Positions 2,477 to 2,505 of a DNA stretch of 13,898 nucleotides are shown piece after piece; position 1 is the stretch's first letter; each line of letters starts with the position of its first letter. The notes below the pieces were generated by a model. The model was not told where the DNA came from. It made no database searches and saw nothing but the letters and a program-made list of their open reading frames with translations. The position numbers and the translations under genes were made by a program. This stretch comes from a virus. Location of the stretch: IMG/VR virus record IMGVR_UViG_3300018080_003280. One strand, 5' to 3'.

Positions 2477-2505
2477 TTGTTCCTGAGAACAAAATCAGAC
2501 TGGAC
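2477..2505. promoter_or_regulatory. palindromic motif copy 1 (TTTGTTCCTGAGAACAAAAT flanked by CTGGAC direct repeats)
   Basis: Stem TTTGTTC / GAACAAA around a CTGA loop, between the MVP-like stop and the terminator. A near-identical copy lies at 12207-12236. Confidence 0.35.

What the first reader, a model, noticed from the sequence alone, without database searches (positions are those of the whole stretch)
2477..2505. 30-bp palindromic motif present twice (2477-2505 and 12207-12236)
Copy 1 is CTGGAC-TTTGTTCCTGAGAACAAAAT-CAGA-CTGGAC. Copy 2 is TTAGTTCTCAGGAACAAAAT-TGCGTA-CTGGAC. Both have a GTTC-N4-GAAC palindrome core flanked by A/T, and an identical GAACAAAAT-N4-6-CTGGAC arrangement. They sit in the same orientation about 9.7 kb apart. 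Copy 1 is in the 3' UTR of the MVP-like gene just before the terminator. Copy 2 abuts the RBS of a small gene at the edge of a long non-coding stretch. A repeated dyad of this length in a compact genome suggests a binding site for a phage regulator, or a conserved promoter or RNA-level element.
Basis: seen in the sequence. Interest (0 to 1): 0.5.

Follow-up and report, generated by a model that had tools for sequence, protein, structure and literature searches.

The report
Conserved regulatory dyad of a jumbo-phage clade
The two palindromes are real copies of a ~20-bp symmetric DNA motif (TTGWTC-N4-GAWCAA) that a small clade of uncultured, tRNA-rich jumbo phages keeps at the same gene boundaries, most likely as the docking site of a still unidentified dimeric regulator of transcription.

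Summary
Window 2477-2492 (TTGTTCCTGAGAACAA) and 12204-12219 (TAGTTCTCAGGAACAA) are two copies of one dyad. The cores are reverse complements of each other, so they are not strictly in the same orientation.

All genes lie on the minus strand. One copy sits 12 nt after the stop codon of the MVP-like gene and abuts an intrinsic terminator. The other ends 12 nt before the ATG of a 57-aa gene and abuts its RBS.

Within the window the statistics are modest: 2 copies against 0.23 expected. Relatives settle the question. In 307 kb of non-redundant sequence from related metagenomic phages there are 23 perfect TTGWTC-N4-GAWCAA sites against 0.13 expected. A 226-kb relative carries one 16-mer six times. 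Sites are kept at the same gene junctions in genomes whose proteins are only 45-68% identical.

Most sites are intergenic and end 1-15 nt before a start codon or 4 nt before a tRNA. Information is confined to a symmetric ~24 bp. The central step is pyrimidine-purine in 32 of 35 sites, in either orientation. Half-sites mix A and T freely, and 13 of 35 sites cannot form a stable RNA hairpin.

Best reading, at about 50%: an operator-like dsDNA site for a dimeric regulator, at or near transcription starts. An RNA hairpin and a promoter core remain rivals. The binding factor and the transcription starts are unknown.

The parts
2477..2492 (.). Site B core dyad. It reads TTGTTC CTGA GAACAA on the + strand and TTGTTC TCAG GAACAA in gene sense. 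This is a perfect match to the family consensus TTGWTC-N4-GAWCAA.
   Evidence: The relative L087 keeps GTTC-N4-GAAC at the same place.
2473..2496 (-). Extended palindrome of site B. In sense it reads GAUUUUGUUC UCAG GAACAAAGUC, 10 pairs including one U.G. It is the only strongly foldable copy in the window.
   Evidence: the hairpin is part of a -39.9 kcal/mol fold with z = -6.9.: -10.9 kcal/mol for the 26-mer.
12204..12219 (.). Site A core dyad. It reads TAGTTC TCAG GAACAA on the + strand and TTGTTC CTGA GAACTA in gene sense. It has one mismatch to the consensus.
   Evidence: In L087 it is identical except for the two central bases, TG to CA. The same 21-mer occurs in the opposite orientation in L241 and L252.
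12229..12234 (-). GTCCAG box (CTGGAC on the + strand), lying 9 nt upstream of the site A 16-mer core in gene sense (11 nt upstream of its GTTC).
   Evidence: It is kept in L087. It is absent from more distant relatives, so it is lineage-specific and of uncertain meaning.
2500..2505 (-). GTCCAG box upstream (in gene sense) of site B. It overlaps the last base of the MVP stop codon (TAGTCCAG).
   Evidence: TAGTCCAG is kept in L087 while the next 9 nt diverge.
2470..2475 (-). Second GTCCAG, directly downstream (in gene sense) of site B. With 2500-2505 it forms a direct repeat flanking the dyad. L087 has GTCCGG here.
2434..2471 (-). Intrinsic terminator: a 13-bp G+C-rich stem, a 4-nt loop, then UAUUUUU. 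It begins 1 nt after the extended site B palindrome.
2505..5060 (-). Major-vault-protein-like gene (851 aa). Its stop codon lies 12 nt upstream of the site B core.
   Evidence: (MVP_shoulder, E = 1.8e-26).
2162..2422 (-). 86-aa gene, the first gene after site B and the terminator. Its RBS follows the terminator T-run directly.
12018..12191 (-). 57-aa gene (MHEWIEF...). In sense, the site A right arm is followed by AAAGGUGGAGGA and then AUG, a 12-nt spacing that includes the SD.
583..598 (-). Doubtful third copy, TTGACA GCCC GAACAA in sense, with 2 mismatches. It sits at the junction of the pyrimidine-dimer glycosylase gene and a 79-aa gene.
   Evidence: 4 hits with up to 2 mismatches against 1.7 expected in the contig. 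This copy is not distinguishable from chance.

Best explanation
The two palindromes are members of a clade-specific family of double-stranded DNA sites. The consensus is AAWT-TTGWTC-N(Y R)N-GAWCAA-AWTT. Two 6-bp half-sites lie 10 bp centre to centre. A homodimeric, probably phage-encoded, DNA-binding regulator most likely reads them.

The sites sit at gene boundaries, usually just upstream of the start of the next gene or tRNA. In a subset they are centred 6-8 bp downstream of a -10-like TAnnnT, which is where transcription would start. The proposed function is that bound protein controls transcription there, either by occluding initiation or by blocking passage, as operators and stoperators do.

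In the window, site A would gate the gene block that starts with the 57-aa gene and ends with the MVP-like gene. Site B would act at the MVP terminator and 86-aa gene boundary.

Shown here: the family, its enrichment, its positional conservation, its symmetry, the central YR step, and the lack of a conserved stable hairpin.

Inferred: that a protein binds, that the protein is a dimer, and that the effect is on transcription. The sign of the effect is unknown.
For: 1. Family and enrichment.
- A 226-kb relative has 6 exact copies of TTGATCATGAGATCAA or its reverse complement, plus variants with the window's arms.
- Pooled over 307 kb of non-redundant clade sequence, there are 23 perfect sites against 0.13 expected, and 30 sites with up to 1 mismatch against 2.1 expected.
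- Unrelated MVP-carrying viral contigs show only background: 32 sites in 1.58 Mb.

2. Orthologous conservation. Five site groups are kept at the same junction or codon position in genomes with 45-68% protein identity. An intragenic pair keeps 12 of 12 arm bases while its flanks are about 65-70% identical and the centre changes.

3. Symmetry only. Information is confined to about 24 symmetric bp, with no conserved asymmetric flank.

4. dsDNA-type symmetry. The central dinucleotide is CA (20), TG (9) or TA (3) in 32 of 35 sites, which is the same step read on either strand. Orthologues flip TG to CA by double substitution: site A against L087, and the 226-kb phage against L235. The asymmetric variant TAGTTC...GAACAA occurs in both orientations relative to transcription.

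5. Half-sites assort independently at the W position: 11 of 35 are mixed, including at conserved sites.

6. RNA hairpins are often negligible. Median energy is -4.4 kcal/mol. 13 of 35 are weaker than -3. Site A is -2.2, with z about 0 in context.

7. Position. The right arm ends 12-15 nt before an SD-led start in at least 7 cases, 1-4 nt before or over an SD-less ATG in group (a), and 4 nt before a tRNA in two cases.

8. Link to promoters. TAnnnT ends 6-8 nt upstream of the dyad centre in 13 of 35 sites on the sense strand, 8 of them with TGn. The mirror position has it in 4 of 35.
Against: - No binding protein is identified. No HTH or other DNA-binding domain was found in the window or next to sites.
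- The two arms co-vary more than column shuffles predict: 91.0% paired against 86.7 +/- 1.3 (1 of 500 shuffles), and 4 pairs with changes on both sides against 1.3 (1 of 500). This includes single compensatory changes at three different pairs and three G.U-compatible changes. A simple dimer model does not predict this. A hairpin or quasi-palindrome correction does.
- Neither site in the window has a recognisable -10 element.
- Site B lies upstream of a terminator, which is not where an operator of a downstream promoter is expected.
- Only two copies are known from the window's own genome, in the 19.5 kb available.
Confidence: 0.5

Rival explanations
1. RNA-level element. The dyad is transcribed and folds into a short A/U-rich hairpin. 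Placed just 5' of the SD, or 3' of a stop codon, the hairpin would act as an mRNA 5' or 3' stabiliser, a processing signal in tRNA-mRNA polycistrons, or the operator of a translational repressor.
For: - Arm covariation exceeds shuffles.
- There are compensatory double changes: TTT/AAA to CTC/GAG in L087 site B, T-A to A-T in L252 site c, and G-C to A-T in L254 site b, the last through a synonymous Asn codon change.
- There are G.U-compatible single changes in L254 and L257, and a U.G in window site B.
- L252 site (a) was rebuilt into a different palindrome, TTTGC-AATGA-GCAAA.
- Site B forms a strong hairpin stacked on the terminator.
- The spacing to the SD is a constant 2-3 nt in six or more sites.
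Against: - 13 of 35 sites fold at weaker than -3 kcal/mol, including conserved group (a) sites at 0 to -1.7. Site A is -2.2.
- 11 of 35 sites have an A.A or U.U mismatch in mid-stem. Other uncompensated changes are C.C, G.G and C.A.
- The centre is conserved as CA/TG irrespective of strand, which has no meaning for an RNA loop.
- There is no excess of sense-strand G.U over A.C in the flanks.
- Copies next to tRNAs and inside genes do not fit translational control.
- There is no Rfam match.
Confidence: 0.2
2. The dyad is itself the core promoter, or the initiator region of one, read by a phage-specific sigma factor or RNA polymerase. Transcription would start at the central YR step or just after the right arm. 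The products would be leaderless or very short-leader mRNAs and short-leader pre-tRNAs.
For: - The distance to downstream features is tight: 1-15 nt to start codons and 4 nt to two tRNAs.
- Group (a) genes have no SD. In most homologues the ATG lies in the dyad centre, 6-7 nt after TGnTAnnnT.
- A central Y(-1)R(+1) is the usual start-site dinucleotide (established knowledge of bacterial promoters).
- Canonical sigma-70 promoters are absent from these loci: 0 against 9.3 expected in L237, and none at the window sites.
Against: - The conserved part is symmetric and carries no direction.
- Most sites, both window sites included, lack a -10-like hexamer.
- In the 226-kb phage the group (a) ATG is after the dyad rather than in it, so one fixed start point cannot make all of these genes leaderless.
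- Site B would launch transcripts straight into a strong intrinsic terminator.
- 9 of the 35 tabulated sites are intragenic, in two orthologous groups.
- No phage RNA polymerase or sigma gene was seen in the loci held.
Confidence: 0.15
3. The dyad is a selfish or mutationally maintained palindromic mini-repeat of the REP or MITE kind. It would spread into intergenic gaps and stay palindromic through template switching, with no dedicated regulatory role. For the window alone, the alternative is a chance pair.
For: - GTCCAG direct repeats flank site B, like a target duplication.
- The 226-kb phage has six identical 16-mers, which suggests recent spread.
- Covariation could come from quasi-palindrome correction.
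- A pair of 16-mers with up to 1 mismatch is expected about twice by chance in 13.9 kb (my estimate).
- The in-window statistics are modest.
Against: - Sites are orthologous and old. The same junction is occupied in at least 9 genomes at 44-68% protein identity.
- Arms are conserved above the local background, even inside a coding region.
- No copy marks an insertion or deletion boundary between the window contig and L087.
- No transposase or RAYT-like gene was seen.
- The central YR constraint and the proximity to starts are not explained.
Confidence: 0.1

Closest known systems
Cluster O mycobacteriophage 17-bp dyad repeats (5'-TGTTCGGNNNCCGAACA; Cresawn et al. 2015, PMC4351075, read)
   Same: - It is a short dyad repeated many times in a phage genome.
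- The arms are nearly invariant and the centre is variable.
- The asymmetry of the centre does not track the direction of transcription.
- Many copies lie between ORFs or near 5' ends of genes, and a minority lie inside genes.
- The authors predict a dimeric DNA-binding protein, and the function is unknown.
- The outer arm even reads TGTTC...GAACA.
   Different: - The geometry is 7-3-7 with G+C-rich inner arms, against 6-4-6 with A/T-rich flanks here. TGTTC and GAACA are 7 bp apart there and 4 bp apart here.
- There are 30 or more copies in 70 kb there, against roughly 1 per 8-13 kb here.
- The host and phage lineage are different.
- Those authors found most sites not associated with promoters or starts. 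Here the sites are mostly close to starts.
Stoperators of Cluster A mycobacteriophages (L5 gp71 repressor sites; from my own knowledge and as discussed in PMC4351075)
   Same: - There are many copies of one short site in short intergenic gaps, close to stop and start codons.
- The proposed action is a bound protein that silences transcription at or through gene boundaries. This is the mechanism I consider most likely here.
   Different: - Stoperators are 13-bp asymmetric sites with a fixed orientation relative to transcription, bound by a monomeric repressor of a temperate phage.
- Here the site is a symmetric dyad without orientation. No repressor, integrase or evidence of lysogeny was seen.
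Start-associated sequences (SAS/ESAS) of Cluster K mycobacteriophages (PMC3203893, found; not read in detail)
   Same: A repeated motif placed a few bases upstream of start codons, next to the RBS.
   Different: - SAS are asymmetric and tied to translation starts.
- This dyad also precedes tRNA genes, follows a stop codon next to a terminator, and occurs inside genes.
Global palindromic operators of plasmid regulons (KorA and KorB operators of IncP plasmids; from my own knowledge)
   Same: One 12-13-bp palindrome is reused at many promoters and at some non-promoter positions to coordinate a backbone regulon through a dimeric repressor.
   Different: - The sequences are different and the setting is a plasmid.
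- The binding proteins are known there and unknown here.

Membership tests
Genome-wide repeated dyad operator-like sites of phages (Cluster O type) | Dyad symmetry with conserved arms and a variable centre | tested here: met
   The arms are 89-100% conserved at five of the six positions. The fourth position from the outside of each arm is W (A or T). The centre is variable apart from the YR step.
Genome-wide repeated dyad operator-like sites of phages (Cluster O type) | Many more copies per genome than chance | tested here: met
   6 exact 16-mers in one 226-kb genome; 23 perfect sites against 0.13 expected in 307 kb of clade sequence. For the window's own genome only 2 copies are known, in 19.5 kb.
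Genome-wide repeated dyad operator-like sites of phages (Cluster O type) | Bound by a dimeric DNA-binding protein | not testable with these tools
   No candidate protein was found. This needs EMSA, pull-down or DAP-seq.
Stoperators (Cluster A mycobacteriophages) | Asymmetric site in one fixed orientation relative to transcription | tested here: not met
   The motif is symmetric. The central step and the TAGTTC variant occur in both orientations.
Start-associated sequences (Cluster K) | Always a few bp upstream of a translation start | tested here: not met
   Many copies are 12-15 nt before an ATG. Others precede tRNAs, lie inside genes or follow a stop codon before a terminator (site B).
Intrinsic (Rho-independent) terminator | G+C-rich stem followed by a U-tract | tested here: not met
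   The dyad is A/U-rich and is followed by AAA. The real terminator is the separate hairpin at 2434-2471.
LexA / Cheo box of Gram-positive type (GAAC-N4-GTTC) | Half-site order GAAC...GTTC | tested here: not met
   Here the order is GTTC-N4-GAAC. The consensus is recalled from my own knowledge.
CRP/FNR boxes (TGA-N6-TCA core) | Spacing of 6 between TGA and TCA | tested here: not met
   The TTGATC-type copies give TGA-N8-TCA, and the window copies lack TGA/TCA altogether. The consensus is recalled from my own knowledge.
Hairpin promoters of N4-like virion RNA polymerase | A stable extruded 5-7-bp hairpin with a 3-nt loop, upstream of the start | tested here: not met
   The loop is 4 nt. 13 of 35 sites have no stable hairpin and 11 of 35 have a mid-stem mismatch. 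No vRNAP gene was seen in the loci held, but the complete genomes were not available.
Any curated RNA family (Rfam 15) | A covariance-model match at the sites | tested here: not met
   With an E-value limit of 1, the only hits in the window are tRNAs and one weak YrlA hit elsewhere.

The most novel reading that the evidence does not exclude
The dyad marks a clade-specific initiation code. Transcription would start at the central pyrimidine-purine step of a palindromic initiator that is also the operator. Where the centre reads CATG, this would yield leaderless mRNAs whose AUG is the dyad centre, as in the SD-less, conserved group (a) gene. Elsewhere it would yield roughly 20-nt leaders and roughly 12-nt pre-tRNA leaders. 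A single dimeric factor could then switch dozens of jumbo-phage genes and tRNA blocks on or off, without sigma-70-type -35 elements.
Probability: 0.12. Interest if true: 0.6.

Novelty: new member of a known kind. Interest (0 to 1): 0.42.

Why it matters
Regulation in uncultured jumbo phages is almost entirely unknown. A short, easily recognised site that is conserved at the same gene junctions gives a concrete handle. These junctions fall in the replication module, in the tRNA arrays and around the vault-protein-like gene.

The site defines a candidate regulon. It offers a bait for finding the regulator by DNA pull-down or DAP-seq with phage ORFs. It is also a marker for binning fragments of this clade.

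It also adds a second, independent example beside the Cluster O repeats, which remain unexplained. Comparing the two may help to solve both. If the sites prove to be centred on transcription starts, they would document an unusual palindromic initiator/operator architecture with leaderless genes.

Tried and rejected
- Near-identical phage genomes: no megablast match in 50,697 phage records. By protein, only three unannotated huge-phage records matched.
- Exact 16-mer of the window in IMG/VR: 83 single hits on unrelated contigs, consistent with chance.
- MVP-based loci from IMG/VR: 80 loci covering 1.58 Mb. Apart from the 101-kb relative already held, they are unrelated genomes with background motif density.
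- T7-like promoter idea for CGACTCTATA upstream of site A: it is unique to that spot, so I dropped it.
- Sigma-70 promoter at either site: none found.
- Invertible segment between the two inverted copies, 9.7 kb apart: rejected. In L087 the two centres (CCAA and AGAC) are not identical. The arms are too short for known recombinase sites. The family has many copies per genome.
- LexA, CRP/FNR, parS and IHF consensus sequences: the spacing or half-site order does not fit (from my own knowledge).
- Regulator candidates: Pfam and PHROGs scans of about 45 neighbouring proteins found no DNA-binding domain.
- Other intergenic k-mers in the 226-kb phage: only tRNA arms recur.
- Literature: nothing on DUF7873, on jumbo phages with MVP, or on such a motif.
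- One relative (the P0009 contig) could not be read because no DNA was held.

Full report
**What is in the window**

The window is the reverse complement of positions 3146-17043 of a 19,467-bp metagenomic contig (ENA ERZ27256796 k141_2361404), with 4 mismatches. All genes read on the minus strand. They include:
- a major-vault-protein-like gene (2505-5060; MVP_shoulder E = 1.8e-26);
- a DUF7873 gene;
- a radical-SAM gene;
- ThyX;
- a pyrimidine-dimer glycosylase;
- many small ORFs;
- five tRNA genes.

G+C is about 57%.

**The two sites**

The quoted sequences are present. In gene sense, site B reads:

UAG-UCCAG-UCUG-AUUUUGUUC-UCAG-GAACAAAG-UCCAG, followed at once by a 13-bp G+C-rich terminator hairpin with UAUUUUU, then AGGAG and the AUG of an 86-aa gene.

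Site A reads:

GUCCAG-UACGCA-AUUUUGUUC-CUGA-GAACUAAAA-GGUGGAGGA-AUG of a 57-aa gene.

Site A sits at the end of a 666-nt gap that also holds tRNA-Glu. The two 16-mers are reverse complements of each other with one mismatch (pair I16).

**Is it more than chance?**

Inside the window the case is only moderate:
- GTTC-N4-GAAC occurs 2 times against 0.23 expected, and 5 of 200 shuffles reach 2.
- The 18-mer occurs 2 times against 0.41 expected.
- CTGGAC by itself is common.
- No further copy exists in the 19.5-kb contig.

**Close relative**

L087 is syntenic, with MVP 76% identical.
- It keeps site A unchanged except for the two central bases (CTGA to CCAA). The surrounding region is about 95% identical overall.
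- It keeps GTTC-N4-GAAC at site B, but with altered and still complementary outer arms (CTC/GAG in place of TTT/AAA).
- It keeps the adjacent terminator and the upstream TAGTCCAG.

**The family**

More distant relatives carry the same kind of dyad with A or T at the fourth arm position. These relatives are recognisable by shared MVP-like, DUF7873, NodZ and Clp_N genes and by dense tRNA arrays of up to 23 tRNAs in 22 kb. The family consensus is TTGWTC-N4-GAWCAA.

- A 226-kb phage (IMG/VR 3300017991_000049, which is the same as ENA k141_2629452) has six exact copies of TTGATCATGAGATCAA or its reverse complement. It also has a copy with the window's arms, TTGTTC TCAT GAACAA, and a mixed copy, TTGATC ATAT GAACAA.
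- Using a conserved 37x-aa protein next to one of those sites, I collected replication-module loci of further clade members.
- Pooled over 307 kb of non-redundant clade sequence, there are 23 perfect sites against 0.13 expected, and 30 sites with up to 1 mismatch against 2.1 expected.
- Eighty unrelated MVP-carrying viral contigs covering 1.58 Mb show only background density.

**Positional conservation**

Five site groups recur at the same place in different genomes:
- **(a)** The junction before the 37x-aa gene, occupied in at least 9 genomes. The upstream gene ends TGG-stop, the dyad follows after 2-4 nt, there is no SD, and the ATG lies in the dyad centre or 1-4 nt after it.
- **(b)** Inside a 232-aa gene, over the peptide WxFVLxNK.
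- **(c)** 12-15 nt before a 238-240-aa gene that has an SD. In one genome the distance is 47 nt.
- **(d)** Between tRNA-Gln and the DUF7873 region.
- **(e)** Inside a 166-179-aa gene. Here 12 of 12 arm bases are identical while the flanks are about 65-70% identical, and the centre changes from ATGA to GCAT at the cost of two amino acids.

These groups rest. Two copies end 4 nt before a tRNA gene. Of the 35 sites tabulated, 9 are intragenic, in two orthologous groups. Most of the rest end within 15 nt of the next start.

**Anatomy**

- An alignment of the sites in gene sense shows information only in a symmetric ~24 bp: AAWT TTGWTC NNNN GAWCAA AWTT. No conserved asymmetric element lies up to 45 nt on either side.
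- The central dinucleotide is CA (20), TG (9) or TA (3) in 32 of 35 sites, against roughly 25% expected. Orthologous sites flip TG to CA by double substitution. On duplex DNA, TG and CA are the same step.
- The asymmetric variant TAGTTCTCAGGAACAAAATTG occurs antisense to the genes in the window and sense to them in L241 and L252.

**DNA site or hairpin?**

Points for pairing:
- On 35 sites the six arm pairs are 91.0% complementary, against 86.7 +/- 1.3 in column shuffles (1 of 500 shuffles reach the observed value).
- Four pairs show changes on both sides, against 1.3 expected (1 of 500).
- There is one compensatory event each at three different pairs, and there are three G.U-compatible changes.
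- L252 rebuilt site (a) into a different palindrome.
- The smaller set of 17 sites showed no excess.

Points against a conserved RNA hairpin:
- 11 of 35 sites have A.A or U.U at the W pair, including conserved group (a) sites.
- Several changes are uncompensated: C.C, G.G and C.A.
- The predicted energy of the 26-mers has a median of -4.4 kcal/mol. 13 of 35 are weaker than -3.
- Site A is -2.2, and in context it is no better than shuffles (z = 0.13).
- There is no Rfam match.

Quasi-palindrome correction during replication could also produce the symmetric double changes. That point is inference.

**Link to promoters**

- Canonical sigma-70 promoters are absent at the window sites. None occurs in 20 kb of L237, against 9.3 +/- 3.1 expected.
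- A -10-like TAnnnT ends 6-8 nt upstream of the dyad centre in 13 of 35 sites on the sense strand. Eight of these have TGn, giving TGnTAnnnT. The mirror position has TAnnnT in 4 of 35.
- In the 226-kb phage, three different upstream genes end TGG-TAA just before the dyad.
- This places the central YR step where transcription would start. It fits the SD-less group (a) genes, whose predicted N-terminus MNK is encoded by the dyad centre and right arm.
- Neither window site has such a hexamer. L087 site B has TAGACT.

**Conclusion on mechanism**

The best-supported reading is a dsDNA site for a dimeric regulator acting on transcription at gene boundaries, with a subset centred on start points. This is operator- or stoperator-like behaviour. 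I give it about 0.5.

The rivals are:
- an RNA hairpin, about 0.2. This fits site B best, because that copy stacks on the terminator;
- the core promoter of a phage-specific transcription system, about 0.15. This reading is at odds with site B facing a terminator and with the symmetry of the motif;
- a selfish or mutationally maintained palindrome, or chance, about 0.1.

No DNA-binding protein was found near the sites.

**Comparison with known systems**

- The closest described analogue is the Cluster O mycobacteriophage 17-bp dyad TGTTCGGNNNCCGAACA. It has more than 30 copies per genome, a centre whose orientation is unrelated to transcription, and about one third of copies in genes. Its function is unknown and a dimeric binding protein is predicted (PMC4351075). 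The geometry and sequence differ.
- Stoperators and SAS share the gene-boundary habit, but they are asymmetric.
- LexA, CRP/FNR and parS consensus sequences do not fit (from my own knowledge).
- No paper mentions this motif or this clade.

I therefore class the finding as a new member of a known kind. It is moderately interesting mainly as a handle on regulation in an uncultured jumbo-phage clade.

Noticed in passing
window 5287-5817 (minus strand): The 531-nt gap between the DUF7873 gene and a 64-aa gene holds three tRNA-like units. In each, the 5' half (acceptor and D arm) and the 3' half (T arm and acceptor, e.g. GGTTCGAATCCTGCCCCCACCA) are separated by inserts of about 90-150 nt. ARAGORN finds nothing there, even when introns are allowed. 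The only hit is a sub-threshold Rfam YrlA (Y-RNA-like) match at 5627-5740 (22.4 bits, E = 0.63). These could be intron-containing tRNAs or tRNA-like RNAs.
   Followed up: partly
window 12237-12662 (minus strand): About 430 nt of non-coding sequence lies between tRNA-Glu and site A. The 714-nt region aligned around it (contig 4187-4900) is 89% identical to relative L087. Fully conserved blocks alternate with variable patches, and there is no ORF and no Rfam match. It may be an unrecognised structured RNA or a long leader.
   Followed up: no
window 9970-12736; loci L088, L092, L153: The tRNA load is very dense and is interleaved with small ORFs. There are 5 tRNAs in the window, 10 in the 19.5-kb contig, and 23 in 22 kb of each of two relatives. 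The anticodon sets are nearly complete.
   Followed up: partly
window 2505-5060 (minus strand): This is an 851-aa major-vault-protein-like gene (MVP shoulder, SPFH/Band 7, and a vault repeat) in a phage context. The closest homologues outside the clade are in Myxococcota MAGs and in huge phages (LR756500, LR756501 and LR756503).
   Followed up: partly
L237 1-20000: There are no sigma-70-like promoter matches in 20 kb of a clade replication module, against 9.3 +/- 3.1 expected from shuffles. The window itself is not depleted: 6 against 5.4. This may reflect avoidance of host-type promoters.
   Followed up: no
L241 19254-19300; L252 about 19561-19600: Directly after dyad (c), two relatives carry a short tandem array TTGACTTT(T) repeated four times, ahead of the 240-aa gene.
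   Followed up: no
window 13785-13803 and 2442-2471 (minus strand): Both strong intrinsic terminators in the window are followed by the RBS of the next gene, after a few nt at site B and about 20 nt at 13785-13803. That leaves little or no room for a promoter. Downstream genes must rely on read-through or on initiation upstream of the terminator.
   Followed up: no
window 13362-13460: Three tandem 33-nt repeats (70-73% identical to the first copy) lie inside the 296-aa gene that matches phrog_29668. This implies an 11-residue peptide repeat.
   Followed up: no
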